A stretch of 64,000 nt of DNA from Candidatus Roizmanbacteria bacterium RIFCSPLOWO2_01_FULL_39_19 (GTDB lineage Bacteria; Patescibacteriota; Microgenomatia; UBA1406; HO2-37-13b). The position numbers were made by a program, and so were the translations under genes. The stretch covers positions 12,470 to 76,469 of the forward strand of contig MGAM01000015.1 in assembly GCA_001789725.1 (NCBI GenBank). Reading direction: 5' to 3'. The notes under the pieces are model-generated. The model did no database searches and was not told the origin of the DNA. It saw only the letters and a list, made by a program, of their open reading frames with translations. Each line of letters opens with the position of its first letter. Within the stretch, counting starts at the first letter, position 1. Shown in pieces: positions 8,201-43,822 of this stretch.

Positions 8201-8375
8201 CGACTAGCAGACTTGACATGTGATTGCTAACAGAGTATCGTTTTGATGGCGAACCGATTGTCGACTACAAAAGCAAAAATGTAGTTTTTGATATTACTAA
8301 ACGAAATTAAATTATTGACAAGAATAGTTTTCAAGATTTATACTTACCTGTTTGTTGACAGATTAGGTAAAATTT

Positions 8376-8699: not shown

Positions 8700-9117
8700 G
8701 GTCGTTTATCCTCATAATCCTTCCATGGATCATTTTAAGATGCATATGAGCTCTTCTAAGTAGATAGAGACAAAACTCTGAAAGCCACCTCAGAGAAGAT
8801 GAATAGGGGGCCTTAAGACCGGTGATCACTGCATTGTCAGAGAGAGGCAGCGTTACTGACTGGGTAGTTGTAAATTGAGAAACGCCGGTGCTTTCAACTC
8901 CCATCGACTGAAGGTCGGGGCTTATTTCGATAACATCGGGTCTATGTTCGACAAATTCTTGTACCTCTTGTTCTGGTTTATGTTCAACAATCTCGTGCAT
9001 TGGAGCATTCTCAAATGTCTTTGGAGATACAATAGCCTCTTGTCTTTCAACTCCTAACGAAGGCGTTGCTCCCGTACTAAGTAGGTGGTCAATTGGAGTG
9101 TAGTTTTGCATGTCCAC
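8683..9117 (-). CDS. Hypothetical protein
   Basis: 144-aa ORF, co-oriented and 42 nt downstream of the 9160.. gene. It has an acidic N-half and a basic/hydrophobic C-terminus (LRWLSEFCLYLLRRAHMHLKMIHG). I recognise no family. Confidence 0.45.
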   Translation of the reverse strand: MDMQNYTPIDHLLSTGATPSLGVERQEAIVSPKTFENAPMHEIVEHKPEQEVQEFVEHRPDVIEISPDLQSMGVESTGVSQFTTTQSVTLPLSDNAVITGLKAPYSSSLRWLSEFCLYLLRRAHMHLKMIHGRIMRINDPIRPA

Positions 9118-9159
9118 TACTATCGTATCAGTTTTTTATCTAAGTTGCCTTTAAAAAAA

Positions 9160-11043: not shown

Positions 11044-13449
11044 TTAGCACGCAGAATACCCGCAACTATAACATTTTTTACAACCTTCTTCAAAAACTAA
11101 CGATGCTCCTCCGCATTCGGGACAGATATCAAAGTGTTGCTTTTCTTCGCTAAATAAATGTGGTTGATTGACGTTTGACACAGGGATGCTGCCAATCGGC
11201 TCTTTAAGTTGGGTGGGAGTATGGGTCCCATTTCCATTAGCAGCAACACTTTCGCTTGTCGCATCGATTAGTTTGCTATCAAGATTGTAATGAATCGCTA
11301 AAACCTTGGCAATTGCATCGGGCAAGCTTCGAACTCTTTCTTTGCCAAATCCGTAAGCTTGAGCTCCTCCAATGTGGGAAAGTTGATGGACAATTTCTTT
11401 AATACGAGCGTGTGGTGGTAAGTGAGATGAAAACCTCAATGCAACAGAGATCATTCGTCCCAATCCTTCAGCCATTGCCCCAACATCAGAACCGGCCTTG
11501 CCGACATTAATAAACACTTCTAAAGGTTCTTGGTTCCCATTGGTATTAACTGTTACGAAAGCAGTTCCAACGGGTGTTTTTATTTTATAAGTTGAACCGC
11601 TAACTACCATAGGTCGTGGTTTTACTAAATAAACCGAGGCATTTGTTTTCTCCTCTTTTTTCTTAGAATCGGAGTCTTCCCGCTCCAGTACCCCAGGACG
11701 TGATCCTTCTCTCATATAAGCAACCCCTTTACACCCAAGATCGTAGGCTAGGTTATATAACTTCTTTACATCATCAACGGTATGATTTTTGGGAGCATTG
11801 ACGGTTTTTGAGATTGAAGCATCAACATAATACTGGATTGTCGCCTGAATTTTGACATGATCCTCAGGGATCAAGTCGTTAGCTGATACGAACCATTCGG
11901 GACGGGTTACTTCGCCGGTCTCAATCTCAGCTTTATGATTAGCAAACCACTCATCATACAAATGATGGCGAATAATATGTTTGCCAAGTCTGTCGCGACG
12001 GACAAATTCAAATTCATACACCGGCTCAATTCCCGAGGAGGCTGTTGCCATAAGTGAAGTTGACCCCGTTGGCGCTTGCATAAAAAGCAAAGAATTTCTT
12101 ACTCCATGTTTGGCAATATCAACTTGAATGTTTTGAGGAAGTCTTTTTATAAATTTTCCTTGTGGATAAAGTTTCTTATCAAATTTTGGAAATGCCCCCT
12201 TTTCCTTTGCAATCTCAACCGATGCGATAAATCCTTCATCACGAATTATTCGGTAGATTTTCTCAACAATTTTTAAGGCTTCTTCAGAACCGTACCTCAT
12301 GTGCATTTTAATCAAGGTGTCACCAAGCCCCATGGTCCCAAGCCCAATACGTCGCTCTCCATTAAGTTGGGTGTCTTTGATGCCCTGGAAAATATAGGGA
12401 TCCATGTCAATGACGTTATCTTGAAATCTTACTGCGGTGTGAACTGTTTGACGAAGCATGTCATAGTCAAACTCTCCTACTTCGTCAATTGAATTTGAAT
12501 TGATAAAAGCCGAGAGATTGATTGACCCAAGATTACAAACTCCCCACTCAGGTAGAGGCTCCTCGCCACATGGGTTGACACAGTTAACTCTATTCCAATA
12601 CCAATTGCTGTAAAGTTTATTCACCCGCTCCATAAATACAACTCCGGGCTCAGCAGATCTCCACGCTGCATCAGATACCAGATCCCAAATTTTTCTGGCC
12701 TTAACCGTCTTATGGACGATAACGCTCTTACCTAGCTTTTTCCATATTTCCAAGTCCCCATTCCAAATCTCATCATATTCGGGGTCGTCCTTATCAGGAA
12801 AGACCAAATCCCAATCCTCATCGCGCTTTACGGCTGTCATAAACTTATCAGAAACACATACTGATAGGTTGGCACCATTAATCCTAGTTAAATCTTGCTT
12901 TACAGTAATAAATTCCTCGATATCGGGATGCCAATCCCACATCATCAACATTAACGCTCCCCGTCTCGACCCTCCTTGTTGGATGATGTCTTTTGTTGCA
13001 AGAGAAAACATCTCTGCCCAATTACATGGTCCCGAAGAAAATCCGTTAACTTTCTTAACTCTTGCTCCTCGCGGACGAAGCGATGAAAGATTAATTCCAA
13101 CTCCCCCGCCGTGGGCCATTATTTCAATCATTTGTGTCAGGGTTTCCATAATGCCCCCTCTTGAGTCTTTGGGTGAGGGAATGACAAAGCAGTTATAATA
13201 GGTAACCTGATATCCTGTCCCGGCTCCAGCCAGTATCCTGCCCCCCGGTACATATTTAAAGTCGATCAAAGCATCATAAAATCTTGTCTCCCATGTTTTT
13301 TTGTTTTTATAACCTTTTTCAACCTGAGAAACGGCATGGGAAACCCTCTTCCACATCTCTTCAGGAGATTTTTCTATTGGACTACCAGATTTATCCTTTA
13401 AAGAATAACGGTCCAAAAAAACTTTTTCTGATACTCCGGTTAACTTCAT
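11044..13449 (-). CDS. nrdJ: Adenosylcobalamin-dependent (class II) ribonucleoside reductase
   Basis: 801 aa with the class II RNR core (NCFV, GGGVGINLS, SNPCGEEPL-type motifs) and a C-terminal Cys cluster CPECGG...CKKCYSCGYSAC. Confidence 0.85.
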   Translation of the reverse strand: MKLTGVSEKVFLDRYSLKDKSGSPIEKSPEEMWKRVSHAVSQVEKGYKNKKTWETRFYDALIDFKYVPGGRILAGAGTGYQVTYYNCFVIPSPKDSRGGIMETLTQMIEIMAHGGGVGINLSSLRPRGARVKKVNGFSSGPCNWAEMFSLATKDIIQQGGSRRGALMLMMWDWHPDIEEFITVKQDLTRINGANLSVCVSDKFMTAVKRDEDWDLVFPDKDDPEYDEIWNGDLEIWKKLGKSVIVHKTVKARKIWDLVSDAAWRSAEPGVVFMERVNKLYSNWYWNRVNCVNPCGEEPLPEWGVCNLGSINLSAFINSNSIDEVGEFDYDMLRQTVHTAVRFQDNVIDMDPYIFQGIKDTQLNGERRIGLGTMGLGDTLIKMHMRYGSEEALKIVEKIYRIIRDEGFIASVEIAKEKGAFPKFDKKLYPQGKFIKRLPQNIQVDIAKHGVRNSLLFMQAPTGSTSLMATASSGIEPVYEFEFVRRDRLGKHIIRHHLYDEWFANHKAEIETGEVTRPEWFVSANDLIPEDHVKIQATIQYYVDASISKTVNAPKNHTVDDVKKLYNLAYDLGCKGVAYMREGSRPGVLEREDSDSKKKEEKTNASVYLVKPRPMVVSGSTYKIKTPVGTAFVTVNTNGNQEPLEVFINVGKAGSDVGAMAEGLGRMISVALRFSSHLPPHARIKEIVHQLSHIGGAQAYGFGKERVRSLPDAIAKVLAIHYNLDSKLIDATSESVAANGNGTHTPTQLKEPIGSIPVSNVNQPHLFSEEKQHFDICPECGGASLVFEEGCKKCYSCGYSAC

Positions 13450-13499
13450 TATGTTTTTCTTATGTCTCCTTTTTTTAAGGCAACTATTAAATGCTACTT

Positions 13500-13946
13500 T
13501 TACGCAATTGCTCTAATCTCCTGTTTAAACTCCTCAACGTCGACAAACCTTCGAAATACACTCGCAAACCGAATATAGGCAACTTTATCTATTTTCTTTA
13601 GTTTGTCAGCAACGATTGCCCCAATTTTTTGACTTTCTACATCGGTACCATCTTCTTGTTTCAGCTTGGTCTCTACTTTAGTTACTATTTCTTCGGCTAT
13701 TTCGAGACTTATCCTAGTTTTTTCGGTCGATTTTAATATCCCTTTTAAGAGTTTATTTCTGTCAAATCGCTCATGTCTGCCATCTCTTTTTATTACCATC
13801 AACGGCAGCTGTTCTACTCTCTCGTAGGTTGTGAATCGACGCAAACATCCGCCACATTCTCGTCTTCTCCTAACTACACTGCTTTCATCTGACGGGCGCG
13901 TTTCAACAACGTCTGTGTCGAATTTGTTGCAAAAAATACATCTCAT
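13500..13946 (-). CDS. nrdR: Transcriptional repressor NrdR
   Basis: MRCIFCNKFDTDVVETR zinc ribbon plus an ATP-cone, 148 aa. Confidence 0.9.
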   Translation of the reverse strand: MRCIFCNKFDTDVVETRPSDESSVVRRRRECGGCLRRFTTYERVEQLPLMVIKRDGRHERFDRNKLLKGILKSTEKTRISLEIAEEIVTKVETKLKQEDGTDVESQKIGAIVADKLKKIDKVAYIRFASVFRRFVDVEEFKQEIRAIA

Positions 13947-13957
13947 ATCCGTTTTTC

Positions 13958-13993
13958 ACACTATATCTTGTGGTAAGACACAATTTAGTACAC
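13958..13993 (-). promoter_or_regulatory. NrdR box (good) plus a second degenerate box, upstream of nrdR-nrdJ-ATR.
   Basis: ACACTATATCTTGTGG (13958-13973) matches acaCwAtATaTwGtgt at 14/16. ACACAATTTAGTACAC (13978-13993) matches at ~10/16 and starts 20 bp away. The boxes lie 11-50 nt upstream of the nrdR ATG. Confidence 0.5.
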
Positions 13994-14189
13994 CAAAAGT
14001 GCTAATGCAAGCAGTCAAAATATATACAAAATAGATCAAGAAAGTTATCCAAACGTGAAAGATAAATAAATTATGTTGATACTCAAAAAAAATTGAACAA
14101 ACATATTTGTTTGCGTTTCTAAAACAGATTAAATTTAAGAAAACACCCTCGTAATTGACAACCGTAGACAATTAGATGACAATAACACT

Positions 14190-14762
14190 ATGGAGGAAAA
14201 AAACAACGGGGCCCATTTAATAACTAATCCACAGGTATTATTTTCTTGGAGGGCACCAGTACGGGCATATAAACAAAAAACTGAGGGGATCTTAAGATTT
14301 TATTTTGCCCTAGCTCTCTTATTGTCCGTTGTTGTTGCTCTATTTGGAGATTGGATATTGATTCTCCCCATTGCTGCATCGGTTTTTTTGTTTTACGCAC
14401 TTACTATTACTCCTCCGGGCAATGTTGATTATAAAATCACCCGTTTTGGCATTGAGGTTGGCGGAATAGCATATCGATACGAAAGTTTGGCTGGATTTTA
14501 TATTACCCAGCGCTTTGACTATTTTGTAATCACGGCTGTTTCAAACAGTCCCTTTTTCAACCACATATATCTAATTACCAACAGTCAAGAAACTTTACAG
14601 ACAATAGTTGACGTTTTGTCTGATCATATTGTCTTTGTTGAAAAGCCCCAGAAAACATTTACTGACAAACTTGCTTCGGTTCTCTCAAGTCTCTTACCTG
14701 AGGAAAAGATTATTGTAGAGCCTCAAGAGAAGCATGAAACTGAGAAGGAGAAACCTCGTTAA
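14190..14762 (+). CDS. Hypothetical membrane protein (two TM helices)
   Basis: 190-aa ORF with a hydrophobic hairpin (LRFYFALALLLSVVVALFGDWILILPIAASVFLFYAL). Its 3' end overlaps the convergent gene by 53 nt. Confidence 0.5.
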   Translation: MEEKNNGAHLITNPQVLFSWRAPVRAYKQKTEGILRFYFALALLLSVVVALFGDWILILPIAASVFLFYALTITPPGNVDYKITRFGIEVGGIAYRYESLAGFYITQRFDYFVITAVSNSPFFNHIYLITNSQETLQTIVDVLSDHIVFVEKPQKTFTDKLASVLSSLLPEEKIIVEPQEKHETEKEKPR

Positions 14763-15333
14763 TTCCTATCATCCTCCCCCAACGCATCACTCCTTCATCA
14801 GCAGAGACTAATGCGCCGTCAACTTCGCGGGCAAGTAAAATAAGATCGATGTCAGCAGCGCTATCGATGAAGTTAAAACGAGTCGCCTGCCTAAAACGCT
14901 CTCTAAACTTAGTTATCACTGCTCCTATTTCTTTTTGATAATCCACCGCAGACATTGTGTCCTTGCCCATCATGAGTTTTGCTCCGACATCAATCTCTTC
15001 CTCGGCTACCTTCATACCTCGATAGGCACGATTTCTCGTCTCTTCGACAAATTCTCTTAAAACATTTGCTCCAATTGTCCCTTTGGCGCTGTCTGGAGAC
15101 TTCACGATGATGTTGGTAAAAAATGCATTTAAATAATCCGGCTCGTCGGTGAAAAAACTTTTCATCTCATCAACTATGTTTGGCGTCATATAGAAGAATG
15201 CTTTTTTTTGCTGGACAAGAATCGTTGCATATTGATTGAATTTCTCAATTACTTCTTTTGATGATCCCCCCCATTGAAGCCCGGACTGTAGATTGAAAAA
15301 AAGATTAGTATCAAGGGCAAATGAGTTAATCAT
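14710..15333 (-). CDS. PIN_5/UPF0278-family protein; candidate RNA-free RNase P (HARP, homolog of Aquifex Aq_880).
   Basis: ~200 aa with FALDTNLFFN (PIN Asp), FFYMTPNIVDEM, ITKFRERFRQATRFNFIDSAADIDLILLAREVDGALVSADEGVMRWGRMIGI. The order and spacing match my memory of the archaeal/Aquifex UPF0278 signature (LDTSvF.N, FYMPp.v..E, LR..YR.A.R.G.lDS..D.d.llLA.ElDG.lVSADeG...WA...GI). Confidence 0.65.
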   Translation of the reverse strand: MINSFALDTNLFFNLQSGLQWGGSSKEVIEKFNQYATILVQQKKAFFYMTPNIVDEMKSFFTDEPDYLNAFFTNIIVKSPDSAKGTIGANVLREFVEETRNRAYRGMKVAEEEIDVGAKLMMGKDTMSAVDYQKEIGAVITKFRERFRQATRFNFIDSAADIDLILLAREVDGALVSADEGVMRWGRMIGINEVSPSQFHASLEALQ

Positions 15334-35614: not shown

Positions 35615-36091
35615 ATGTTTGCTACAATAATAGAAACTCTTATGAAAATTATCAATAAAAACGTTAATAGAGAATATTCTATCCTCGATAAACTCGAGGT
35701 TGGTATTGTGCTGACTGGAGCAGAGGTTAAGTCAGTTCGTGGGGGAAGAATGAGTTTGGCGGGTTCTTATGTTCGATTTATTGGAGGAGAGCCGTGTTTG
35801 GTGGGCGCCCAGATTCATGCCTACAAGTTTGATGGGAGTCCTGATTATGACGATAAACGCACCCGGCGTCTACTGTTGCATAAAAAAGAGATATTAAAAC
35901 TAAATATTAGATTATCAGAGCGCTCCAGCTTGACAATTGTGCCTCTGACCTGCTATACTAAGGGACATCGAATCAAATGTGAAATCGCGCTTGCCCAAGG
36001 CAAAAAGACCTGGGAAAAAAAGCGGGTTGAAAAAGAAACGAGTGAAAGGCGACGCGTCGAGAAAGAAATAAAAGAAAAATACAGGGGATGA
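35615..36091 (+). CDS. smpB: SsrA-binding protein SmpB
   Basis: NREYSILDKLEVGIVLTGAEVKSVR...LLLHKKEI, with a basic C-tail. An alternative start is at 35642. The stop TGA (36089-36091) lies inside the tmRNA 5' end. Confidence 0.9.
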   Translation: MFATIIETLMKIINKNVNREYSILDKLEVGIVLTGAEVKSVRGGRMSLAGSYVRFIGGEPCLVGAQIHAYKFDGSPDYDDKRTRRLLLHKKEILKLNIRLSERSSLTIVPLTCYTKGHRIKCEIALAQGKKTWEKKRVEKETSERRRVEKEIKEKYRG

Positions 36092-36503
36092 GCGGATTCG
36101 ACAGGATGATAGGTACTTTAATAAATGGCAAGGGCGCACCTATGCGTCAAATAGAAAAAAAATACTTGAGAACGACATAAACGCTCTCGCTGATCGTGTT
36201 TTGGCATTAATCGTAAGACGAAATGCTGGATACAATCGGTTTGCTTACACAGTTGCTTAACCAACAGCAACGCACAAGCACTCATTTTAGGTTTTTTACT
36301 TTTTGATTCAACCTAAATTCTGAGGTAACCAATTAAAAAGATCACAATGATCGTGCGAGTGGATTATTGTTGAAACCCTTACTCGCCCACCTATAAACGT
36401 TTGATTATTTTTGTTTATAGCTTGGTGGTAAAAATAATCTACCCCTTGCTAGAACGTTTTTTAAAGACCATTCTGGACCCGGGTTCGACTCCCGGCATCT
36501 CCA
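36084..36503 (+). ncRNA. ssrA: tmRNA (SsrA)
   Basis: The 5' end is GGGGAUGAGCGGAUUCGACAGG. The 3' end is GGACCCGGGUUCGACUCCCGGCAUCUCCA. The acceptor GGGGAUG/CAUCUCC includes G3-U. A possible tag frame ends ...AYTVA-UAA at 36258-36260; the tag is not confidently assigned. Confidence 0.85.
36430..36502 (+). repeat. attL-like copy (functional 3' end of ssrA)
   Basis: AAAAATAATCTACCCCTTGCTAGAACGTTTTTTAAAGACCATTCTGGACCCGGGTTCGACTCCCGGCATCTCC. Confidence 0.75.
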
Positions 36504-38058
36504 CAAGTTGGTTTTTAGACGATCCATGATCGTTCATTAGCCTGATAGGAAGGGACAAAGTATCGGTTCCAAACCCTTTTTCATAATCATAACTCGGTTT
36601 CTTTCCAAAGTACATATAAAGTATCGTTCTTTTTGTTTCTATATTGTCGCTTTTCCACATCTTAACAGGCTCTTTTAGGGTTGAGAAGACCTTGTTGTAG
36701 GCGGTTCCAAACTCATCCTCGGTGTAGTGTATTTGTCCAAGTGATTCTTCTAATTCAGCCTTTTCCTTCATAAGTCCTATAAGTTTATTCTCAAACAGAT
36801 TGGCTACCGATTCATCTTTTGCTTTGCCACTCCTTATGACATAGCCCTCCGCTTCTTCAGTTATCTCTATTATTCTTTTTTCTTTACTTTTATTTATCCC
36901 GGCGTCATCAGATTTGGTTTTGTCCCATACTTCACTAAATATCTCTTTCGCTAATTCAATTACGCCCGGTCCCGGCTTTATCGTACTTAGCTTGCTTTCA
37001 AATTCAGGCTCAATTTTACTCTTGCCGATTGTTTTATATCGGTAAATACAACCATCGGTTTTACACCAATAATTAGGGTATTTTTGATTCCTTCCCTTAT
37101 TCCAACTTGCCGTATATGGTTGGTCACAAGCATTACACAAAACATTAGGTCGGAGGGGAAAATCAAGATTATAGTCATTTCTTAATTTCGGAGTTGCTCT
37201 CCCGGCGAGCTTATTCTGAACCGCTTTATAGGTATCAAGGCTAATAAACCCCTCATGTTTCCCCTTTGTTAAAGGAATCTCCCATGGTTCGTACTCAATG
37301 TAACCGGTATACAACAACTCAGTCAGTATGTTTTTTGTGCCATTTAATGAAAGTGTTCGCTTAATTCCGTGTATAGCATATTGACTTAGAATGAAAAGTC
37401 GTACTTCATCTTGTGTATTAAATCTATTGCTTTCAAATCCCTCTATTGCTTCCTTATAGATTGTCGCATAGGGTTCAACATTCGTTAAAACTTTTTTGTA
37501 GATGGGATGTCCTTCGTTTTTAAGTCCGGGAGGAGGACAAAAACACCAAAACGCATCAAGTAGACGAGCTCTCATTTTTTGCATGACTTGTCGTGTGTTT
37601 TGTTTTCTAGTTAATTGACTCGCACTTGCCAGTACAAGCTCAGCAAATTCGCTCTCCGGGTTGTCTTCAAAGTTAAAGTTAAGACATTCAATCTTCGCCC
37701 CTCGTGCCATAATTTCAGCTTTCAATCTAATATGTACTGCAACGTCTCTTGCAAAGCGTGATAGATCATCAAAGATAACAACGTATGATTTATATGGGTG
37801 AGCGTCAAGGTAGGCAAGAAGCTCCTTCATTGCAGGTCTTTCAAATAAACCACCTGATACTCCTTCGTCAGGAAAAACTTTTTCAATGGGATAGTTTTTA
37901 TCTTTTGAGTAATTTATACATCTTTGTTCTTGTGAGTCTAAACCATGCCCCTCTTTAACCTGCTTAGGTGATGAAACCCTACAATAGATTAACGCATGAA
38001 GGATTTCATTTGGTTGTTTTTGATTTTCCTTTTGTTTCTTCATGGATTGTCTTTTCAC
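36439..38058 (-). CDS. Large serine recombinase
   Basis: ALIYCRVSSPKQVKEGHGLDSQ is a resolvase catalytic domain. A recombinase domain and a Cys-containing zinc-ribbon region follow (CNACDQ...CKTDGC). The last ~21 codons are antisense to the tmRNA 3' end. Confidence 0.85.
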   Translation of the reverse strand: MKRQSMKKQKENQKQPNEILHALIYCRVSSPKQVKEGHGLDSQEQRCINYSKDKNYPIEKVFPDEGVSGGLFERPAMKELLAYLDAHPYKSYVVIFDDLSRFARDVAVHIRLKAEIMARGAKIECLNFNFEDNPESEFAELVLASASQLTRKQNTRQVMQKMRARLLDAFWCFCPPPGLKNEGHPIYKKVLTNVEPYATIYKEAIEGFESNRFNTQDEVRLFILSQYAIHGIKRTLSLNGTKNILTELLYTGYIEYEPWEIPLTKGKHEGFISLDTYKAVQNKLAGRATPKLRNDYNLDFPLRPNVLCNACDQPYTASWNKGRNQKYPNYWCKTDGCIYRYKTIGKSKIEPEFESKLSTIKPGPGVIELAKEIFSEVWDKTKSDDAGINKSKEKRIIEITEEAEGYVIRSGKAKDESVANLFENKLIGLMKEKAELEESLGQIHYTEDEFGTAYNKVFSTLKEPVKMWKSDNIETKRTILYMYFGKKPSYDYEKGFGTDTLSLPIRLMNDHGSSKNQLVEMPGVEPGSRMVFKKRSSKG

Positions 38059-38493: not shown

Positions 38494-38874
38494 TTAACAG
38501 TTCGCATTGTACAAACCAACGATTTTATGTATCTCTTGTATGTAGTGAAGTCGTGCCGTGTAATCTACCATTCCATTGCTTGTGACGGCGTCAAGTCCCT
38601 CGGTTAATCGTCGCTCTACTTTAGAATTATTTCCAACCAAACCAACCTTTTTGAGTTCATGTTGCAATGCTTTTACAATGTTAGGTTTTGAAAGGTATTC
38701 AGACGCCATTGAGCGAGCTGTAGCATCGGTTTTAACGTCATACACCCTCTTTATACATTCTTTCGGCTTGATCGGTTTTCCCATGCGTATAGCGGTCACT
38801 AAATGAGCAATAAAGAGTTGTTGTCTTAATGTAAGACCAAAAGGATTATGCTTGTTAATTGCAATGTAGGGCAT
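38494..38874 (-). CDS. Terminase small-subunit-like HTH protein (tentative)
   Basis: LTLRQQLFIAHLV...KECIKRVYDVKTDATARSMASEYLSKPNIVKAL resembles the Terminase_2 N-terminal pattern (LT.kQ..F...Y......A...aGY....a...a..ll..p.v...i). Confidence 0.4.
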   Translation of the reverse strand: MPYIAINKHNPFGLTLRQQLFIAHLVTAIRMGKPIKPKECIKRVYDVKTDATARSMASEYLSKPNIVKALQHELKKVGLVGNNSKVERRLTEGLDAVTSNGMVDYTARLHYIQEIHKIVGLYNANC

Positions 38875-38970: not shown

Positions 38971-39498
38971 ATGCCACCCCCCGACATCATAGAAAAATCC
39001 TATCATTTGTGCTACAATACAGCTTGTATGGATAGTCCAAACAGTAAAGCGATTGATATTATTTCAACGTATTTCATAGAGATAATACAAATAGTCATTC
39101 TCCTTGGATTTATTCTTCTTAAATTCGCTCAGGTAATTGATCAGCAAACACTTCTCGTTGTTTCCCTATTTGTAATAGGCTCAATTTCGGTAAGATTCTT
39201 AGCAACAACATATCTTAATTATGTTATCACAATAAGGAATACGGCATATTTCCAAGACAATAGAACCGCAAACTTTTTGACGTTTGATGCTTTGAAGTTT
39301 GTTTTGATACTTGTTAGTTTAATATCAATAATTGTTTTAGGGTTAAACAATGTTTTGAACAATGAAACAATAGCCACGTTATTGGGAGGCTTGATTGGAT
39401 CACTCTTAACTATGAGAGGTAGCTATTCAGATTTGAAACCATTATCAAAGAAAGAAATGGAGGAGTTAAACCCCACATCCCAAACACCACAACCTTAA
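38971..39498 (+). CDS. Hypothetical membrane protein (4 TM helices)
   Basis: The hydrophobic segments are clear. The true start may be the internal MDSPNSK. Confidence 0.5.
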   Translation: MPPPDIIEKSYHLCYNTACMDSPNSKAIDIISTYFIEIIQIVILLGFILLKFAQVIDQQTLLVVSLFVIGSISVRFLATTYLNYVITIRNTAYFQDNRTANFLTFDALKFVLILVSLISIIVLGLNNVLNNETIATLLGGLIGSLLTMRGSYSDLKPLSKKEMEELNPTSQTPQP

Positions 39499-39538: not shown

Positions 39539-40237
39539 TTAGTTATTCCCCACAACTCCATAGCGTACATTTGTTTTTCCATCCTCAATGGTTATGTTTG
39601 CAATCCAAATCTTACCTAACTCATCGGTTTTTTTAACATGAACACCACCATCGGGCATAGAAGGGTAGTCTCCTATCTTGATCATCCGCAAAGGCTTATT
39701 TCGTGGTAAATTTGGTGGTAAGAATTGACAATCTCTTTCTAGCTCCTCGTACGTTGCTTCTTTTGTGACAACTTCAAGCCCGGATTGTGCAATTTTATTG
39801 ACCTCGGTTTCAATTTGTTCCTTCAAAGAAACATCAAGTTCTCCTTCATATTCAAGGAAGGCTTTTTTACCATGACCTCCTCTTATGGGTTTAAGGTCTT
39901 TGACGATCGTCATTAAAACATCATGTAAAAGATGACCGGCAGTATGAATTTGCATATACTTATATCGCCAATTCCAATCAATAGTGCCTTTAACGGCGTC
40001 ACCTTTCTTCAGGTCTCCTTTAACTTGATGGATGATTTCACCATCCGATACTCTCACATATTCAACATGAGCGGTTCCCAAAGTTCCTCTATCAGATGGT
40101 TGCCCACCACCCTCGGGGTAAAAAATAGTTTGATCTAAAACAACGTTTAGTAGGCTCCCGGCTTGTTCGGCACTAACAACAGTACAATCAAGCTCGGTCT
40201 GATAAGGGTCTTGGTAATATATTTGTTTAGTATTCAT
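39539..40237 (-). CDS. AlaX-type alanyl-tRNA editing (trans-editing) domain protein
   Basis: VLDQTIFYPEGGGQPSDRG, IDWNWRYKYMQIHTAGHLLH (HxxxH zinc motif), and a C-terminal DGGVHV where the family normally has CGGxHV. Confidence 0.75.
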   Translation of the reverse strand: MNTKQIYYQDPYQTELDCTVVSAEQAGSLLNVVLDQTIFYPEGGGQPSDRGTLGTAHVEYVRVSDGEIIHQVKGDLKKGDAVKGTIDWNWRYKYMQIHTAGHLLHDVLMTIVKDLKPIRGGHGKKAFLEYEGELDVSLKEQIETEVNKIAQSGLEVVTKEATYEELERDCQFLPPNLPRNKPLRMIKIGDYPSMPDGGVHVKKTDELGKIWIANITIEDGKTNVRYGVVGNN

Positions 40238-40248
40238 AGGATTTTTAA

Positions 40249-40668
40249 TTATCTAAGGGATGGTAAACTCCCTGTAACTTTAGTAACAGATTTCTTGTCT
40301 CCATAGATCGCAATCGCATCTATGTCTAAATCATTGTAATTGGTCTCCGCGACCGATTTTTTGTATTCTTCATACGACCTCATTCCTTGTGCACGAGTCA
40401 GAAATACTATAATTTTGCACCCTAACTCCTCACCTCTTTTGCAAAGTTCAAGAAATGATATATTTGGCTTAGCAGTCAATATGGGAATAGGAATTTGTGT
40501 AAACCCCAAAAGTTCAATCCCATCTTTTGTAACTAAATTCTGACCGGGTAAGCTTGGAATATGCATCGCAAGACCGGTTGCAAGAACTGCCGCTCTATTT
40601 GCAGCTAACCCTATTCCTAAAGTTGAACTGACAACTATAACGACCTTTAATTCTTCATGTTCTTCCAT
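40249..40668 (-). CDS. DUF2000 family protein
   Basis: KVVIVVSSTLGIGLAANRAAVLATGLA...TKDGIELLGFTQIPIPIL...IVFLTRAQ...YGDKKSVTKVTGSLPSLR matches the DUF2000 pattern as I remember it. It lies 11 nt upstream of alaX. Confidence 0.65.
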   Translation of the reverse strand: MEEHEELKVVIVVSSTLGIGLAANRAAVLATGLAMHIPSLPGQNLVTKDGIELLGFTQIPIPILTAKPNISFLELCKRGEELGCKIIVFLTRAQGMRSYEEYKKSVAETNYNDLDIDAIAIYGDKKSVTKVTGSLPSLR

Positions 40669-40700
40669 ATTTCAATTATTATAACTAATAAATTTGTGAT

Positions 40701-40732
40701 TGGGCAAAGCGGGGAGGAATCATCCTCCCCGC
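40701..40732 (-). terminator. Strong 10-bp GC-rich hairpin after the 95-aa ORF
   Basis: GCGGGGAGGA (40709-40718), loop ATCA, TCCTCCCCGC (40723-40732). On the minus strand it is followed by UUUGCCC. Confidence 0.5.
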
Positions 40733-40749
40733 ATGGTATCAATGCCACA

Positions 40750-41037
40750 CTAGCCACTCCGAGGTGAAAAATGGGCAACACATGGTTCACATGATGTGCG
40801 GTGTTGATAAAGACCTTGTCTTGCCTCTTGAACTTCTAACATTGGAATAAGCTCTTCAGCCGGGTAGTCGGTTCTTCCTTCCCAAACCTCCGGTGCGTGT
40901 TCTTGCGAATAATTAACACGAATTGTCCCTCCTCCTATTCTTTCCAAAGCTGAAAGCTGTCGTTGTAAGCCTTGATAGGTTGGACACCAATGACTATCTC
41001 TTTCAACACCTCCTTTTCCTGATAATGCTTCTGACAT
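40750..41037 (-). CDS. Small (95 aa) Cys-containing hypothetical protein, GC-richer than its surroundings
   Basis: A strong SD (AAAGGGGGTGA) lies 6 nt upstream of the ATG. Terminator hairpins flank it on both sides. I recognise no family. Confidence 0.55.
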   Translation of the reverse strand: MSEALSGKGGVERDSHWCPTYQGLQRQLSALERIGGGTIRVNYSQEHAPEVWEGRTDYPAEELIPMLEVQEARQGLYQHRTSCEPCVAHFSPRSG

Positions 41038-41080
41038 AATTTCTCACCCCCTTTCATGTTTTAATTTATATTTGGCATAC

Positions 41081-41139
41081 TAAAAACCCGCCGGGTGGCG
41101 GGTCTTGTTGGCAAAAAAAATCCCCGCCTATTTGCGGGG
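41081..41139 (-). terminator. Two tandem intrinsic terminators (minus strand)
   Basis: T1 is ACCCGCC-GGGT-GGCGGGT (41086-41103) followed on the minus strand by UUUUU. T2 is CCCCGC-CTATTT-GCGGGG (41122-41139) followed by AUUUUUUUU. Confidence 0.7.
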
Positions 41140-41406
41140 TATGTGTTTTCTAATGCAATACATTAGTCACCCCGCGTAAGCAGGGTAAAAAAGTTATTGA
41201 TTCCTTTTATGTAGCCTTGTGTCAACATAATTCAATTATACCATGAAATGCTTCAAAAGCAAAACATCATGTTCAAACACTCCTATGTGATATTGGCATA
41301 CTATCTTCAGGCAAGTTCAGATTCAGATGATTGAGCACCGGATACCATTTCCAAACATACTCTTCTATTTGGTTCCAATTTTCAGCAAACTTGTCCACCG
41401 AAGAAT

Positions 41407-41934
41407 TCAAACATATTGGAGTAATTGTGGTATTTCTTTTATACCAAACGTATCAGTAAAGTGTCCGGCCCCCTTAATTAAAACACTTTTCCCTCCTAGC
41501 CTTTTACTCATCTGCTCATTAATAAAATAAGTACAATACGGATCATTATCAGAGCTTATACAATAAATCTCTGAAACATTTTTCTTAATTTTTTCATGAT
41601 CCAGAGCATTTGGCCAAAACAGCCGATGTTCTTTTGTTAAATCATTAAAATCCCAACCCGATATTAAAAACATTTTCTTAAACAAATATTTTTCAGCCAG
41701 TCTCATTGCTAGTAAACAGCCAATGCTGTGGCCAAAGATAATCATATTCCTATTAATAGTTAATAAATTCTTAATAAAATCCAACTGTTTCTTCATGTCA
41801 GGTAAGTCCGTATCCATAGTTGGAAGTTCGGGAAGATAAACTTGATATCTTCGTTTTTCAAGCTCTTGTTTTAACCACGAATACCAATTGTTTTCTGGCT
41901 TTTCATACCAAGCATGTAAAATGAGCGCTTTCAT
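41407..41934 (-). CDS. YdeN/RBBP9-type alpha/beta serine hydrolase
   Basis: ILHAWYEKPENNWYSWL... and the nucleophile elbow IIFGHSIGC; 175 aa. Confidence 0.65.
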   Translation of the reverse strand: MKALILHAWYEKPENNWYSWLKQELEKRRYQVYLPELPTMDTDLPDMKKQLDFIKNLLTINRNMIIFGHSIGCLLAMRLAEKYLFKKMFLISGWDFNDLTKEHRLFWPNALDHEKIKKNVSEIYCISSDNDPYCTYFINEQMSKRLGGKSVLIKGAGHFTDTFGIKEIPQLLQYV

Positions 41935-42029
41935 AAATGTATTATATCAAGCAAACAAAAACGATAAACGCGTTGATGTTTGACAGGACTTATATCCTGT
42001 GGTAAAGTATAAGTACCATACGCGTACCT

Positions 42030-43049
42030 ATGTATCAGCCATTTTTTGAAATCTCACCTAGAATAAGCAGTGCTCTGGAAGCAATTGGACAGATTCTTGG
42101 ATTTTTAAAAGCCACTCGTATCCCTAAAGCCTACGAAAAAGAATATCTAACAAAAGTAATTATAGATACTATAAATTCTTCAACTGCTATTGAAGGTAAC
42201 ACTCTTACTCCTTCTCAAATAAGAAAAGTTGTTAAGGGTAAAAAAATTATTGCTATGCAAAAGGATATCCAAGAAGTTAAAAATTATCATCGAGCCGTTA
42301 AGGAACTAATAAAAATTACGAAAACCAAAGACGATATATCTGAAAAAATAATTCTTAACTTACATAAAATTATTACCAACAAGCTTGATATTAATCGATC
42401 AGGTCAATATCGAAAACAGATGGTTATTGTTGGTGATTATTTATCTCCCAAACCTAATGAAGTTCTAAGACTAATGAAGGAGTTTGTCAAATGGATTAAT
42501 AAACCCACTCCAACAGACTTATCGCCACTTCTTTATGCTGGTATAGTTCATTATCGTTTTGTTGCCATTCATCCTTTTGCTGACGGTAATGGTCGAACGG
42601 CAAGGATTTTAACCAAATTAATTCTGATGAAATTTGGTTATAACATTACTAAGTTATTCTCTCTTGAAACTTATTATAATCGTGACAGAAAAGCTTATTA
42701 TCAAGCATTATCAACCATAGATAAATATCGTATTGACAGAAAAGAAAATTTAACGCTTTGGCTCGAATATTTTATTGAAGGAATGCTTGTTGAGGCAGAA
42801 AGAGCAAGGTCTAAAATAATTGAACTCCAGTCAAAAAGTAAACAGGTACCGATATTATTAACTAATAGCCAACAAAAAGCTTTAGTTTGGTTTACAAAAA
42901 ATAAAATTCTGCGAATGCAAGATTATATTAAAATATCAGGACTAAGCCGTAAAGGTGCATATAAAAGCCTAAATGTATTAGTTAAATTAAGGCAAATTAT
43001 CAAGGTCGGGGTGGGAAAACAAACCTATTACGTCTTGCTTGAAAAATAA
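42030..43049 (+). CDS. Fic family protein (AMPylase-type) with an N-terminal inhibitory motif and a C-terminal wHTH
   Basis: Active site HPFADGNGRTARIL. Upstream (S/T)xxxE(G/N)-type motif STAIEGN. C-terminal DNA-binding-like domain. The stop codon falls within the attR repeat. Confidence 0.85.
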   Translation: MYQPFFEISPRISSALEAIGQILGFLKATRIPKAYEKEYLTKVIIDTINSSTAIEGNTLTPSQIRKVVKGKKIIAMQKDIQEVKNYHRAVKELIKITKTKDDISEKIILNLHKIITNKLDINRSGQYRKQMVIVGDYLSPKPNEVLRLMKEFVKWINKPTPTDLSPLLYAGIVHYRFVAIHPFADGNGRTARILTKLILMKFGYNITKLFSLETYYNRDRKAYYQALSTIDKYRIDRKENLTLWLEYFIEGMLVEAERARSKIIELQSKSKQVPILLTNSQQKALVWFTKNKILRMQDYIKISGLSRKGAYKSLNVLVKLRQIIKVGVGKQTYYVLLEK

Positions 43050-43114
43050 TCTACCCCCCGCTACAACATTTTTTAAAGACCATTCTGGACCCGGGTTCGA
43101 CTCCCAACATCTCT
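43042..43114 (+). repeat. attR-like copy (degenerate tmRNA 3' fragment)
   Basis: AAAAATAATCTACCCCCCGCTACAACATTTTTTAAAGACCATTCTGGACCCGGGTTCGACTCCCAACATCTCT. It shares a 37-nt identical core with the first copy, has ~7 mismatches, and its T-stem is broken. Confidence 0.75.
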
Positions 43115-43120: not shown

Positions 43121-43822
43121 TTAGAATTGCATCTTAATAGGCAAATCTCTTGTTCCGTTGGGAAACATTCTTTTACCCATACGATGAACTCTATCGTATA
43201 CTTGTGACGAAGGTCTATAACTATCTCCTGCCTCAAAAAGGACTTGTGTCGAAGCTGACACAGCCCTCATGTTCATTTCTCTCATAACAGCAATTGCTTT
43301 TTGCTGTGTTTGTATATCTTGCCAAGAGATCCGTTCAATATCTCTCATCTGAGTTGCCCCCCCTGCCAAATGAGCCACAGCTTCAACAGGATGAGCCTGA
43401 GCATGTAAGAAAAATTGGATGGGAATTATGAAATAGGTTCTGTCATCATGAAGAGACCGAGTACTTATAATGCCCTCGGGTACAAAATGAGGAGGTCGAA
43501 TGACCGGAAGTCTCGTTATTTGAGCGGTTGTTGATAGCAGATCATTATTAAGCACCGTAACAACGGGGTGAGGACCAGGTTCTAACAAGCGCCATGCTTG
43601 AGTGCCAGTTTGACGGAGGAATGGACTTAATGCCCTATTAGCCAACCATCCTAAACCTGCATGGATATAGTCAATAAACACTCCAATATTTTGAGTGGCA
43701 AGCTGTTGTTGAAAAAATATAGCATTGCCTAAATATTGGGCATATCGAGCATTAATCAGATCAAATGCATGGGAAACGCCATCATCAGATGGTAAGTATT
43801 CCTCGGCTGTCTCTATAGTCAT
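43121..43822 (-). CDS. Hypothetical protein (233 aa), GC-richer, immediately outside attR
   Basis: Clean ORF. A TATAAT lies 8 nt upstream of the ATG. I recognise no motif. Confidence 0.5.
   Translation of the reverse strand: MTIETAEEYLPSDDGVSHAFDLINARYAQYLGNAIFFQQQLATQNIGVFIDYIHAGLGWLANRALSPFLRQTGTQAWRLLEPGPHPVVTVLNNDLLSTTAQITRLPVIRPPHFVPEGIISTRSLHDDRTYFIIPIQFFLHAQAHPVEAVAHLAGGATQMRDIERISWQDIQTQQKAIAVMREMNMRAVSASTQVLFEAGDSYRPSSQVYDRVHRMGKRMFPNGTRDLPIKMQF

What the first reader, a model, noticed from the sequence alone, without database searches (positions are those of the whole stretch)
39539..43049. Island cargo centred on aminoacyl/peptidyl-tRNA chemistry: AlaX-like, DUF2000, Fic and a serine hydrolase
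Seen in the sequence:
- An AlaX-type trans-editing domain gene (HTAGHLLH present; the second zinc motif is DGGVH instead of the usual CGGxH) lies 11 nt downstream of a DUF2000 gene.
- On the same island are a Fic enzyme and a YdeN/RBBP9-type serine hydrolase. The Fic has an intact HPFADGNGRTAR site, an upstream STAIEGN inhibitory-type motif and a C-terminal wHTH.

Established knowledge (from memory): AlaX hydrolyses mischarged tRNA-Ala. DUF2000 is structurally related to PTH2-type peptidyl-tRNA hydrolases. Fic/Doc enzymes commonly modify translation factors or GTPases.

Inference: this is a mobile module that manipulates or protects charged tRNA and translation. It could be toxin/immunity, abortive infection or counter-defence. 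It is carried in the ribosome-rescue locus and not described as a unit as far as I know.
Basis: partly seen in the sequence, partly recalled or inferred. Interest (0 to 1): 0.6.

Follow-up and report, generated by a model that had tools for sequence, protein, structure and literature searches.

The report
Portable tRNA-proofreading gene pair on island
A small mobile island in the tmRNA gene of a candidate-phyla bacterium carries a conserved gene pair (a DUF2000 protein and an aspartate-variant AlaX-type protein); in related bacteria the same two parts are built into tRNA-charging enzymes, whereas the neighbouring Fic and hydrolase genes are unrelated passengers.

Summary
Window 39539-43049 encodes:
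- an AlaX-M-like protein (HTAGHLLH kept, DGGVH in place of CGGxH);
- a DUF2000 protein whose stop lies 11 nt upstream of the AlaX-like start;
- a Ser_hydrolase;
- a Fic enzyme.

All four lie in a 6.6-kb island bounded by 72-nt repeats of the tmRNA 3' end, next to a large serine recombinase.

- DUF2000 plus AlaX is a real unit, together with a small Cys/His protein. The trio recurs in other Roizmanbacteria islands, there flanked by 107-nt repeats and without Fic or the hydrolase.
- The nearest AlaX relatives are fused to PheRS, at the beta C-terminus or the alpha N-terminus. One is fused to TrpRS.
- In Gottesmanbacteria, DUF2000 sits between pheS and pheT.
- In Gracilibacteria, LysRS, DUF2000 and AlaX form one polypeptide.
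- Asp-for-Cys marks a conserved clade under purifying selection. It is not a relic.
- DUF2000 has a PTH2-like fold.
- The Fic matches the known single-gene SoFic defence model.

My best reading is a synthetase-accessory aminoacyl-tRNA deacylase pair, probably serving tRNA-Phe, captured as island cargo. The activity itself is inferred, not shown.

The parts
36084..36504 (+). tmRNA (ssrA) gene, the integration target; its 3' end is rebuilt by the island-side repeat
   Evidence: ARAGORN; Rfam RF00023, 96 bits; sequence read
36430..36501 (.). attL-side copy of the 72-nt direct repeat (the functional tmRNA 3' end)
   Evidence: the repeat finder family D1; core pattern expected 0.01 times by chance
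43042..43113 (.). attR-side copy of the repeat (92% identical; the T-stem and acceptor-strand bases differ, so it is a decayed duplicate)
36439..38058 (-). Large serine recombinase (539 aa). Its last ~22 codons run antisense through the tmRNA 3' end.
   Evidence: Pfam Resolvase 2.9e-21; PHROG integrase phrog_95 3.3e-51; 49% identical to the recombinase in the same position in L001/L024
38494..38874 (-). 126-aa protein with a weak match to the DNA-binding part of small terminase; possibly a recombination directionality or HTH factor
   Evidence: PHROG phrog_51 1.3e-4; no Pfam or NCBIfam hit
38971..39498 (+). 175-aa hydrophobic (membrane-like) protein of unknown function; variable cargo
   Evidence: translation; no family hit; no relative in related loci
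39539..40237 (-). Asp-type AlaX-M-like protein (232 aa): H98/H102 kept, D196 in place of the zinc Cys, H200 kept
   Evidence: dN/dS 0.04 against the L024 orthologue
40249..40668 (-). DUF2000 protein (139 aa) with a PTH2-like fold, 11 nt upstream of the AlaX-like gene
   Evidence: PF09391 2.4e-28; model pLDDT 87, Foldseek 2gax TM 0.83, then PTH2 structures; profile hit to 2gax 1.6e-5; dN/dS 0.07-0.12
40750..41037 (-). 95-aa Cys/His-rich protein (HWCP...CEPCVAHF), the third conserved member of the cassette in island versions only
   Evidence: Homologues directly upstream of DUF2000 in L001, L024-26 (52%) and L032 (80%); dN/dS 0.17; no family hit
41407..41934 (-). YdeN/RBBP9-type serine hydrolase (175 aa); independent cargo
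   Evidence: PF06821 1e-15; GHSIG, D and H motifs; no relative in the first 108 loci fetched
42030..43049 (+). Class II (self-inhibited) Fic AMP-transferase of the SoFic type; independent single-gene defence-type cargo
   Evidence: PF02661 1.5e-20; PADLOC SoFic 7.2e-57 over model positions 28-350 of 361; motifs at residues 51-57 and 181-192; SoFic biology in PMC12249575

Best explanation
The stretch is variable cargo of a 6.6-kb island that a large serine recombinase inserted into the 3' end of ssrA in a Roizmanbacteria-type (CPR/Microgenomates) genome. It is not one system.

(1) The cassette. DUF2000, the Asp-type AlaX-M-like protein and the upstream 95-aa Cys/His protein form one conserved cassette. 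It is an accessory of aminoacyl-tRNA synthetases. In sister lineages the same AlaX clade is physically fused to PheRS (alpha N-terminus or beta C-terminus), and once to TrpRS. DUF2000 is inserted between pheS and pheT, or fused between LysRS and an AlaX domain.

The most likely mechanism is as follows. The AlaX-like protein binds the acceptor end of a charged tRNA, most probably tRNA-Phe, and hydrolyses a non-cognate aminoacyl ester at a His-His-Asp(-His) metal site. DUF2000, on a PTH2 fold, hydrolyses a second class of aberrant (aminoacyl or N-blocked aminoacyl) esters on the same tRNA.

- Shown: the domain identities, the folds, the conserved linkage and fusions, and purifying selection.
- Inferred: the hydrolase activities, tRNA-Phe as the client, and the identity of the wrong amino acid.

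(2) The Fic gene is a SoFic-type, self-inhibited AMP-transferase. This is a known stand-alone abortive-infection defence gene.

(3) The YdeN-type serine hydrolase is a further independent passenger.

The position next to smpB and ssrA reflects the integrase's target choice, not function.
For: Island:
- tmRNA plus 72-nt repeats plus a serine recombinase.
- The same type of ssrA island, with a recombinase 49% identical, carries the same trio but otherwise different cargo (SEC-C, PIN_12, AlbA_2/HATPase, EamA) in L001 and L024-26.
- In L024 and L032 the trio is bracketed by copies of a 107-nt repeat that separates cargo cassettes.

The pair is a unit:
- DUF2000 followed by AlaX lies after a ribosomal-protein operon in L023.
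- AlaX-PheS fusion, DUF2000, PheT in L002, L009 and L013; DUF2000, AlaX-PheS, PheT in L014.
- LysRS-DUF2000-AlaX occurs as single polypeptides (P0284, P0272, P0346, P0348, P0385) in Candidatus Gracilibacteria.

Link to PheRS:
- In a search of 1.84 billion representatives, the best hit (P0098, 57% identity) is a PheT-AlaX fusion. It is sister to the window protein with 99/91 support.
- The Asp motif occurs in 22 of 26 PheS fusions, 5 of 5 PheT fusions and the 1 TrpRS fusion. It occurs in 0 of 16 LysRS fusions.

Aromatic amino-acid context:
- Free Asp-type AlaX lies between trpA and tyrA (L031), and between a TrpB-like gene and a class Ib (Trp/Tyr-type) synthetase gene (L033).
- DUF2000 lies directly before prephenate dehydratase (L007) and chorismate mutase (L016).
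- DUF2000 also lies in a plasmid cluster with a BacA-type prephenate decarboxylase.

The genes are functional:
- dN/dS is 0.04-0.17.
- HxxxH, GGQ, R91 and D196 are invariant across the Asp clade.

Folds:
- AlaX-M, TM 0.80-0.88.
- DUF2000: 2gax at TM 0.83, then six PTH2 structures at probability 1.0.

Fic: PADLOC SoFic 7e-57; described in PMC12249575.
Against: - No biochemical data exist for any Asp-type AlaX or any DUF2000 protein. Not one paper in the searched library contains 'DUF2000'.
- The AlaX-like score is below the NCBIfam AlaXM equivalog cut-off (155 against 300 bits).
- The canonical zinc Cys is missing. In many clade members the fourth ligand is also lost (Q, L or I). Activity could therefore be altered or gone.
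- A precedent exists for an appended, non-catalytic AlaX-like domain on apicomplexan TrpRS (PMC3680381).
- Many close free-standing Asp-type AlaX genes have no DUF2000 next to them (L029, L031, L033, L034). Many CPR DUF2000 genes stand alone (L004, L005, L012). The partnership is therefore facultative.
- PheT-AlaX fusions keep the B3/4 editing residues H265, E334 and A356, so it is unclear which error is left to correct.
- LysRS fusions show that the DUF2000-AlaX tandem is not Phe-specific in general.
Confidence: 0.6

Rival explanations
1. AlaX-like, DUF2000, Fic and the hydrolase act together as one mobile conflict system (toxin/immunity, abortive infection or counter-defence) that targets or protects charged tRNA. 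Fic would be the toxin and the deacylases the protective arm.
For: - All four genes lie in one small island.
- Fic is a defence-type toxin.
- Cargo of the sister island (PIN_12, SEC-C, AlbA_2) looks defence-like.
- One unrelated CPR contig (L008) has a Fic, 29% identical, about 1.3 kb from a DUF2000 gene.
Against: - Fic and the hydrolase are absent from the five other loci that carry the trio.
- In L024 and L032 the trio is its own repeat-bounded cassette.
- Fic carries its own inhibitory helix, and SoFic works as a single gene, in E. coli with a small downstream antitoxin.
- The pair has no PADLOC hit. DUF2000 has no relative in viral contigs, and the few AlaX hits there are Cys-type with no DUF2000 beside them.
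- Elsewhere the pair is embedded in housekeeping synthetase operons.
Confidence: 0.07
2. The Asp-type AlaX-like protein no longer edits. It is a tRNA-binding or structural helper that improves aminoacylation by PheRS, as proposed for the AlaX-like domain of Plasmodium TrpRS. DUF2000 would be a similar non-catalytic adaptor.
For: - The canonical Cys is lost, and often the fourth zinc ligand too.
- CPR PheT proteins lack the usual N-terminal tRNA-binding B2 domain: B3_4 starts near residue 84-110.
- Precedent in PMC3680381.
- B3/4 editing residues are retained, so a second editing site is not obviously needed.
Against: - Unlike the Plasmodium domain, which lost all four ligands, this clade keeps HxxxH, the GGQ loop, R91 and an invariant Asp at the Cys position.
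- dN/dS is 0.04.
- That pattern is what an intact, remodelled active site would show. His-His-Asp is a common catalytic metal triad (established knowledge, not tested here).
Confidence: 0.15
3. The pair recycles N-blocked or peptidyl-tRNA, not mischarged tRNA. DUF2000 would act as a PTH2-type hydrolase on N-acyl-aminoacyl-tRNA, for example the products of GNAT tRNA-acetylating toxins or ribosome drop-off. That would make it a portable rescue or counter-toxin function.
For: - PTH2-like fold.
- Carriage on an island among defence-type genes.
Against: - There is only fold-level similarity to PTH2 (TM about 0.55) and no sequence match.
- PTH2 catalytic residues were not mapped.
- The core-genome placement inside pheST and the fusion to LysRS point to a co-synthetase role, not a general rescue role.
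Confidence: 0.1
4. DUF2000 is not a tRNA enzyme. It would be a small-molecule enzyme or regulator of aromatic amino-acid metabolism acting on prephenate, arogenate or analogues. Its link to PheRS and AlaX would then reflect shared phenylalanine homeostasis.
For: - It is adjacent to prephenate dehydratase, chorismate mutase, aminotransferases, a BacA-type prephenate decarboxylase cluster, AraC or Lrp regulators, and DMT or LysE exporters.
Against: - Direct in-frame fusion between LysRS and an AlaX domain is hard to explain for a metabolic enzyme. So is insertion between pheS and pheT.
- The nearest folds after 2gax are all tRNA ester hydrolases.
Confidence: 0.08

Closest known systems
AlaX-M (AlaXp-M) trans-editing proteins, e.g. 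Pyrococcus horikoshii PH0108 (PDB 2E1B) and P. furiosus (9IUW); also C. perfringens 3KEW
   Same: - Same two-domain fold, beta-barrel plus editing core (TM 0.80-0.88).
- Same length, and free-standing.
- HxxxH motif, GGQ loop and conserved H122 are all present.
   Different: - The zinc-binding Cys of CxxxH is Asp throughout this clade.
- The score is below the NCBIfam equivalog cut-off.
- Its relatives are fused to PheRS or TrpRS, not associated with AlaRS.
- It is partnered with DUF2000.
- The client tRNA and the amino acid removed are unknown.
Peptidyl-tRNA hydrolase 2 (PTH2; archaeal 3ERJ, 1WN2, 1XTY, 2ZV3, 1RLK; human Bit1/PTRH2 1Q7S) and the DUF2000 structure Atu0240 (2GAX)
   Same: - The fold of the predicted DUF2000 model matches 2GAX (TM 0.83) and then only PTH2 structures (probability 1.0, TM about 0.55).
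   Different: - No sequence-level match to PTH2.
- The CPR subfamily has its own invariant motifs (NRAAVLATGL, LTRAQGMRSY, LDID), which are not shared with Atu0240.
- It is linked to synthetases, not free-standing and housekeeping.
Appended AlaX-like domain of apicomplexan TrpRS (PMC3680381)
   Same: - An AlaX-type module attached to a synthetase for an aromatic amino acid that is not AlaRS or ThrRS.
   Different: - The Plasmodium domain is AlaX-S-like and has lost all four zinc ligands, and it is considered non-editing.
- Here the module is AlaX-M-like and keeps His-His plus an invariant Asp.
- In this window it is free-standing and mobile.
FthB/FthC of Streptomyces cattleya (a trans-editing deacylase plus an exporter that protect against 4-fluorothreonine; the deacylase is mentioned in PMC11295145, the exporter is from my own memory)
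   Same: - The logic of an accessory, non-essential trans-editing factor that removes a toxic amino-acid analogue from tRNA, sometimes placed beside an exporter.
- Here a LysE exporter lies inside the L032 cassette and a DMT exporter lies beside DUF2000 in Clostridium.
   Different: - FthB is a YbaK/ProX-type protein.
- No analogue or producer pathway is identified here. The similarity is one of logic only.
SoFic single-gene anti-phage defence (PADLOC PDLC03963; PMC12249575)
   Same: - The window Fic matches the model end to end (7e-57) and has the catalytic and inhibitory motifs.
   Different: - It is far below the NCBIfam SoFic equivalog cut-off (74 against 550 bits).
- No small downstream antitoxin gene is evident, because the gene ends at attR.
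- Defence activity is untested.
Genomic islands integrated in ssrA (tmRNA genes as integration hot spots; established knowledge)
   Same: - A duplicated tmRNA 3' end as att sites, with the recombinase gene next to attL.
   Different: - It uses a large serine recombinase, where ssrA islands more commonly use a tyrosine integrase (my own knowledge). The recombinase ORF ends inside the tmRNA gene.
- In relatives the cargo is arranged as repeat-bounded cassettes.

Membership tests
AlaX-M trans-editing proteins | Beta-barrel plus editing-core fold | tested here: met
   AF2 model pLDDT 93.5. Foldseek 3kew TM 0.88; 2e1b and 9iuw TM 0.80/0.79.
AlaX-M trans-editing proteins | Score above the NCBIfam NF040865 equivalog cut-off | tested here: not met
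   154.9 bits against a cut-off of 300.
AlaX-M trans-editing proteins | First zinc motif HxxxH | tested here: met
   H98-T-A-G-H102, invariant in the clade.
AlaX-M trans-editing proteins | Second zinc motif CxxxH | tested here: not met
   DGGVH: D196 aligns with the Cys of 2e1b. Asp is present in 22 of 26 PheS fusions, all 5 PheT fusions, the 1 TrpRS fusion and the free-standing relatives scored as Asp-type.
AlaX-M trans-editing proteins | Hydrolysis of Ser- or Gly-tRNA-Ala with G3:U70 recognition | not testable with these tools
   Needs deacylation assays.
DUF2000 (PF09391) | Pfam score above the gathering threshold, and the fold of 2GAX | tested here: met
   99.2 bits against 25. Foldseek 2gax TM 0.83. 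Profile hit 1.6e-5.
PTH2 peptidyl-tRNA hydrolases | PTH2 fold | tested here: met
   Six PTH2 structures at probability 1.0, TM 0.43-0.58.
PTH2 peptidyl-tRNA hydrolases | Sequence membership (Pfam PTH2) and catalytic residues | tested here: not met
   No PTH2 family hit and no PDB sequence hit to PTH2. Catalytic residues could not be mapped because no structural alignment was available.
Fic / SoFic defence | HxFx(D/E)GNGRxxR catalytic motif and an (S/T)xxxE(G/N) inhibitory motif | tested here: met
   HPFADGNGRTAR at residues 181-192; STAIEG at 51-56.
Fic / SoFic defence | Match to the PADLOC SoFic model, and to the NCBIfam SoFic equivalog | tested here: inconclusive
   PADLOC 7.2e-57 with near full-length coverage. 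NCBIfam NF046030 gives only 73.8 bits against a cut-off of 550.
Ser_hydrolase (YdeN/RBBP9, PF06821) | Pfam score above gathering, and a GxSxG nucleophile with Asp and His | tested here: met
   58.5 bits against 22. GHSIG, SDNDPY and GAGHF present.
ssrA-integrated genomic island | Direct repeats of the tmRNA 3' end bracketing a recombinase and cargo | tested here: met
ssrA-integrated genomic island | An empty site in a relative, or an excised circle | not tested
Multi-gene defence or toxin-antitoxin system including AlaX/DUF2000 | Match to a known defence model, and conserved co-occurrence of the pair with Fic or the hydrolase | tested here: not met
   No PADLOC hit for the pair. Fic and the hydrolase are absent from L001, L024-26 and L032. 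Only L008 has a distant Fic nearby.

The most novel reading that the evidence does not exclude
DUF2000 and Asp-type AlaX together form a previously unrecognised, horizontally transferable two-enzyme proofreading cassette for aromatic aminoacyl-tRNAs. It would strip a prephenate-derived, hydroxylated or otherwise aberrant Phe-like amino acid (or its D- or N-blocked form) from tRNA-Phe.

In some CPR lineages the cassette is hard-wired into PheRS. In Roizmanbacteria it travels as an island cassette, sometimes with an amino-acid exporter. That would be antimetabolite resistance by tRNA editing, analogous in logic to FthB/FthC.
Probability: 0.2. Interest if true: 0.8.

Novelty: new variant of a known kind. 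Interest (0 to 1): 0.55.

Why it matters
Post-transfer editing is thought to be covered by a short list of domains: the AlaRS/ThrRS type, INS/YbaK, CP1, B3/4 and DTD.

This locus, read with its relatives, shows three things.
- An AlaX branch with an Asp in place of the supposedly essential Cys is dedicated to PheRS and TrpRS, not to AlaRS.
- The uncharacterised DUF2000 family, which has a PTH2 fold, is its recurrent partner. DUF2000 is also fused into LysRS.
- The pair can move between genomes as a cassette.

This gives DUF2000 its first concrete, testable function. It suggests an extra layer of phenylalanine quality control in reduced-genome bacteria. It also suggests that translational fidelity factors can be mobile accessory traits.

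The Fic and hydrolase genes are ordinary, unrelated island passengers.

Tried and rejected
I could not look for pheS/pheT, dtd or pth in the window's own genome, and pheS/pheT are not in the window.
- A single-sequence search of DUF2000 against PDB found nothing. Only the profile and the fold search did.
- Idea rejected: invariant H122 is a compensating ligand specific to the Asp clade. It is equally conserved in Cys-type AlaX.
- Idea mostly rejected: the AlaX module replaces a decayed B3/4 editing site. H265, E334 and A356 are kept in the four PheT-AlaX fusions aligned. Only the L002 PheT has E334 replaced.
- Idea rejected: the 131-aa gene upstream of DUF2000 in L023 is a homologue of the 95-aa Cys protein. 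It shows no similarity.
- DUF2000 has no relative in viral contigs. AlaX hits there are Cys-type with no DUF2000 beside them.
- Plasmid hits for DUF2000 are on replicons of 0.1-2.6 Mb, 31 of 32 typed non-mobilizable, with metabolic neighbours.
- The 107-nt cassette-boundary repeat of the sister islands is not present in the window.
- Rfam finds no RNA other than tmRNA in 35-45 kb.

Full report
**Observation.** ORF listing and translation give, inside 39539-43049:
- a 232-aa gene at 39539-40237 (-);
- a 139-aa gene at 40249-40668 (-);
- a 95-aa gene at 40750-41037 (-);
- a 175-aa gene at 41407-41934 (-);
- a 339-aa gene at 42030-43049 (+).

Family assignments are as follows.
- The 139-aa protein is DUF2000 (Pfam PF09391, 2.4e-28).
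- The 175-aa protein is a Ser_hydrolase (PF06821, 1e-15).
- The 339-aa protein is Fic (PF02661, 1.5e-20).
- The 232-aa protein matches the C-terminal end of the AlaRS model and, weakly, tRNA_SAD. NCBIfam places it nearest AlaXM (NF040865, 2.7e-45), but at 155 bits it is below the 300-bit equivalog cut-off.

Against PDB the best sequence hit of the 232-aa protein is AlaX-M of P. horikoshii (2e1b, 4e-23). In that alignment the Cys of 'PCGGTH' lines up with Asp196 of 'PDGGVH'.

**The island.**
- ARAGORN and Rfam find tmRNA at 36084-36504, immediately after smpB.
- A 72-nt direct repeat (36430-36501 and 43042-43113, 92% identical) duplicates the tmRNA 3' end. Its 19-nt core is expected 0.01 times by chance.
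- The distal copy has mismatches in the T-stem and the acceptor strand, so it is a decaying duplicate.
- Next to the proximal copy lies a 539-aa large serine recombinase (Resolvase 2.9e-21; PHROG integrase 3.3e-51).

The stretch is therefore cargo of a 6.6-kb island integrated in ssrA. The 'ribosome-rescue locus' context is a matter of integration-site choice.

**Which of the genes travel together?**
DUF2000 homologues are from CPR Microgenomates: Roizmanbacteria at about 90% identity and Gottesmanbacteria at about 65%. Their contexts are informative.

- In a Roizmanbacteria MAG and three metagenome contigs (L001, L024-26) the same kind of island sits at the same ssrA site. Its recombinase is 49% identical and again overlaps the tmRNA 3' end.
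- That island carries the same three consecutive genes: a homologue of the 95-aa Cys/His protein, then DUF2000, then AlaX-like.
- Its other cargo is different: SEC-C, PIN_12, AlbA_2/HATPase and EamA. It has no Fic and no Ser_hydrolase.
- In L032 the trio recurs with a LysE-type exporter inserted between DUF2000 and AlaX.
- In L024 and L032 the trio is bracketed by copies of a 107-nt repeat. That repeat occurs five times between cargo genes of the L024 island, so there the trio is a discrete cassette.
- The hydrolase has no relative in any of the first 108 loci fetched. A distant Fic (29% identity) occurs near a DUF2000 gene once, in L008.

The pair plus the small Cys/His protein is a unit. Fic and the hydrolase are not part of it.

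**What the AlaX-like protein is related to.**
An exhaustive HMMER search of 1.84 billion representatives found 39 proteins at E below 1e-30.

- The best hit (P0098, 57% identity) carries the domain at the C-terminus of a PheRS beta subunit with B3_4, B5, core and FDX-ACB domains.
- P0103, P0110, P0113 and P0141 have the same architecture.
- Many others carry the domain at the N-terminus of PheRS alpha (P0097, P0111, P0116 and more).
- In a maximum-likelihood tree the window protein is sister to the PheT fusion P0098 with 99/91 support. Free, alpha-fused and beta-fused forms interleave.
- A further search found an Asp-type domain fused to TrpRS (P0248). It also found Cys-type domains fused to class II LysRS and to LeuRS.

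| Partner synthetase | Fusions examined | Asp at the Cys position |
|---|---|---|
| PheS | 26 | 22 |
| PheT | 5 | 5 |
| TrpRS | 1 | 1 |
| LysRS | 16 | 0 |

(All counts.)

Across the Asp clade, HxxxH, the GGQ loop, R91 and the Asp itself are invariant. The fourth ligand position varies (H, Q, L or I). The window protein keeps His there. The D-for-C change is thus the signature of a conserved subfamily that goes with aromatic-amino-acid synthetases. It is not decay. dN/dS against the sister-island orthologue is 0.04. The predicted structure (pLDDT 93.5) superposes on AlaX-M and AlaRS editing domains at TM 0.80-0.88.

**What DUF2000 is related to.**
- The AF2 model (pLDDT 87) matches the DUF2000 crystal structure 2gax (TM 0.83). 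After that it matches only PTH2 peptidyl-tRNA hydrolases: 3erj, 2zv3, 1wn2, 1q7s, 1xty and 1rlk, at probability 1.0 and TM about 0.55.
- A profile of the family hits 2gax at 1.6e-5 but no PTH2 sequence.

**Linkage of DUF2000 with AlaX and with synthetases.**
- In Gottesmanbacteria-type genomes the conserved thrS-infC-rpmI-rplT-pheS-pheT operon reads [AlaX-PheS fusion]-DUF2000-PheT (L002, L009, L013).
- L014 reads DUF2000-[AlaX-PheS]-PheT. L015 reads PheT-DUF2000.
- In L023 the free pair DUF2000 then AlaX follows the rplM-rpsI operon.
- In Candidatus Gracilibacteria, LysRS, DUF2000 and AlaX are one polypeptide, in the same DUF2000-then-AlaX order as the window genes (P0284, P0272, P0346, P0348, P0385).
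- Other members of the same LysRS group have AlaX without DUF2000.

The partnership is recurrent but facultative. Several close free Asp-type AlaX genes lack DUF2000 (L029, L031, L033, L034). Several DUF2000 genes stand alone.

**A theme of aromatic amino acids.**
- Free Asp-type AlaX lies between trpA and prephenate dehydrogenase in L031.
- It lies between a TrpB-like PLP enzyme and a class Ib (Trp/Tyr-type) synthetase gene in L033.
- DUF2000 lies directly upstream of prephenate dehydratase (L007) and of chorismate mutase (L016), and near aminotransferases (L016, L018).
- On a Pseudomonas plasmid it lies in a cluster with a BacA-type prephenate decarboxylase, an AMP-binding enzyme and a transaminase.
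- Exporters (LysE, DMT) and AraC or Lrp regulators are frequent neighbours.

This fits a role in handling Phe-like or other near-cognate amino acids. It is circumstantial.

**Does AlaX replace a lost PheRS editing site?**
I aligned CPR PheT proteins with E. coli PheT. The editing-site residues H265, E334 and A356 are retained in the four PheT-AlaX fusions aligned. Only the L002 PheT has E334 replaced. Simple compensation is therefore not the explanation.

**Fic and the hydrolase.**
- The Fic has the catalytic motif and an N-terminal (S/T)xxxE(G/N) inhibitory motif, which makes it class II.
- It matches the PADLOC SoFic model over nearly its whole length (7.2e-57).
- SoFic is a described single-gene abortive-infection defence, regulated in E. 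coli by a small downstream antitoxin (PMC12249575).
- The hydrolase has an intact catalytic triad and no conserved association.
- Neither the pair nor the Cys/His protein hits any PADLOC model.
- DUF2000 has no relative in viral contigs. On plasmids it occurs only in records of 0.1-2.6 Mb, 31 of 32 typed non-mobilizable.
- AlaX hits in viral contigs are Cys-type with no DUF2000 beside them.

**Literature.**
- No paper in the searched library contains 'DUF2000', and none mentions Atu0240 or PF09391.
- Recent reviews list the AlaX-type domain only in AlaRS, in ThrRS and as free AlaX-S, -M and -L (PMC11580382, PMC11295145).
- The one precedent for an AlaX-like domain on another synthetase is apicomplexan TrpRS. 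There all zinc ligands are lost and the domain is considered non-editing (PMC3680381).
- Earlier notes of this scan, read after my own searches, report the PheRS and LysRS fusions independently. They also report a Legionella plasmid operon of DUF2000, YbaK and AlaX. I treat those as leads. I re-derived the first two here and did not test the third.

**Conclusion.**
The island cargo is not one system. The DUF2000 and Asp-type AlaX pair, with the small Cys/His protein, is a conserved and selectively maintained cassette. Its relatives are wired into PheRS, and its Cys-type cousins into LysRS.

The most economical reading is a synthetase-accessory pair of tRNA-ester hydrolases, most likely serving tRNA-Phe, picked up by an ssrA island.
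- The linkage and the folds are shown.
- The activities, the client tRNA and the substrate are inferred.
- The Fic is a SoFic-type defence gene.
- The hydrolase is an unrelated passenger.

I could not see whether the host's own PheRS already carries the module.

Noticed in passing
L024:2722-2828, 5231-5337, 6294-6400, 6950-7056, 8942-9048; L032:1620-1726 and 4179-4256: A 107-nt repeat (66-91% identical, starting GTGGACAYRGTCCG) lies between the cargo genes of the sister ssrA island and brackets the Cys-protein/DUF2000/AlaX trio. It looks like a cassette boundary or recombination site. It partly overlaps small 61-62-aa ORFs and is absent from this window.
   Followed up: partly
window 36439-36504: The serine recombinase ORF ends inside the tmRNA gene, running antisense through its 3' end. 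The same holds in L024 (recombinase 13082-14614, tmRNA 14553-14901). The C-terminal peptide '...VEMPGVEPGS' is conserved between the two.
   Followed up: partly
window 43121-43822: A 233-aa ORF sits immediately outside attR. It has no hit in Pfam, NCBIfam, PADLOC or PHROGs, and its amino-acid composition differs from its neighbours. It may be a remnant of an older insertion.
   Followed up: no
window 40750-41037: A 95-aa Cys/His protein (HWCP...CEPCVAHF) is conserved directly upstream of DUF2000 only in the island versions (52-80% identity, dN/dS 0.17). It has no family and may be a zinc-binding third component.
   Followed up: partly
L032:2758-3375: A LysE-type amino-acid exporter gene is inserted between DUF2000 and AlaX in one cassette variant. 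The AlaX gene in that contig appears frameshifted.
   Followed up: partly
L113 (P. aeruginosa plasmid NZ_CP096823.1, record 3973-10102): DUF2000 lies in an Lrp-regulated cluster with a Dabb protein, an AMP-binding enzyme, a branched-chain transaminase, a BacA-type prephenate decarboxylase and an ornithine cyclodeaminase. This looks like a pathway for a prephenate-derived non-protein amino acid.
   Followed up: no
P0141 (1089 aa) and CPR PheT proteins in L002, P0098: CPR PheRS beta subunits lack the usual N-terminal tRNA_bind (B2) domain. In P0141 a tRNA_bind domain sits after FDX-ACB and before the AlaX module.
   Followed up: no
P0276 (1086 aa), P0355 (670 aa): Cys-type AlaX-like domains are also fused to the N-terminus of a LeuRS and to an Aminotran_5 (cysteine-desulfurase-type) protein.
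   Followed up: no
window 38494-38874: A 126-aa island protein weakly resembles the DNA-binding region of phage small terminase (phrog_51, 1.3e-4). It could be a recombination directionality factor for the serine recombinase.
   Followed up: no
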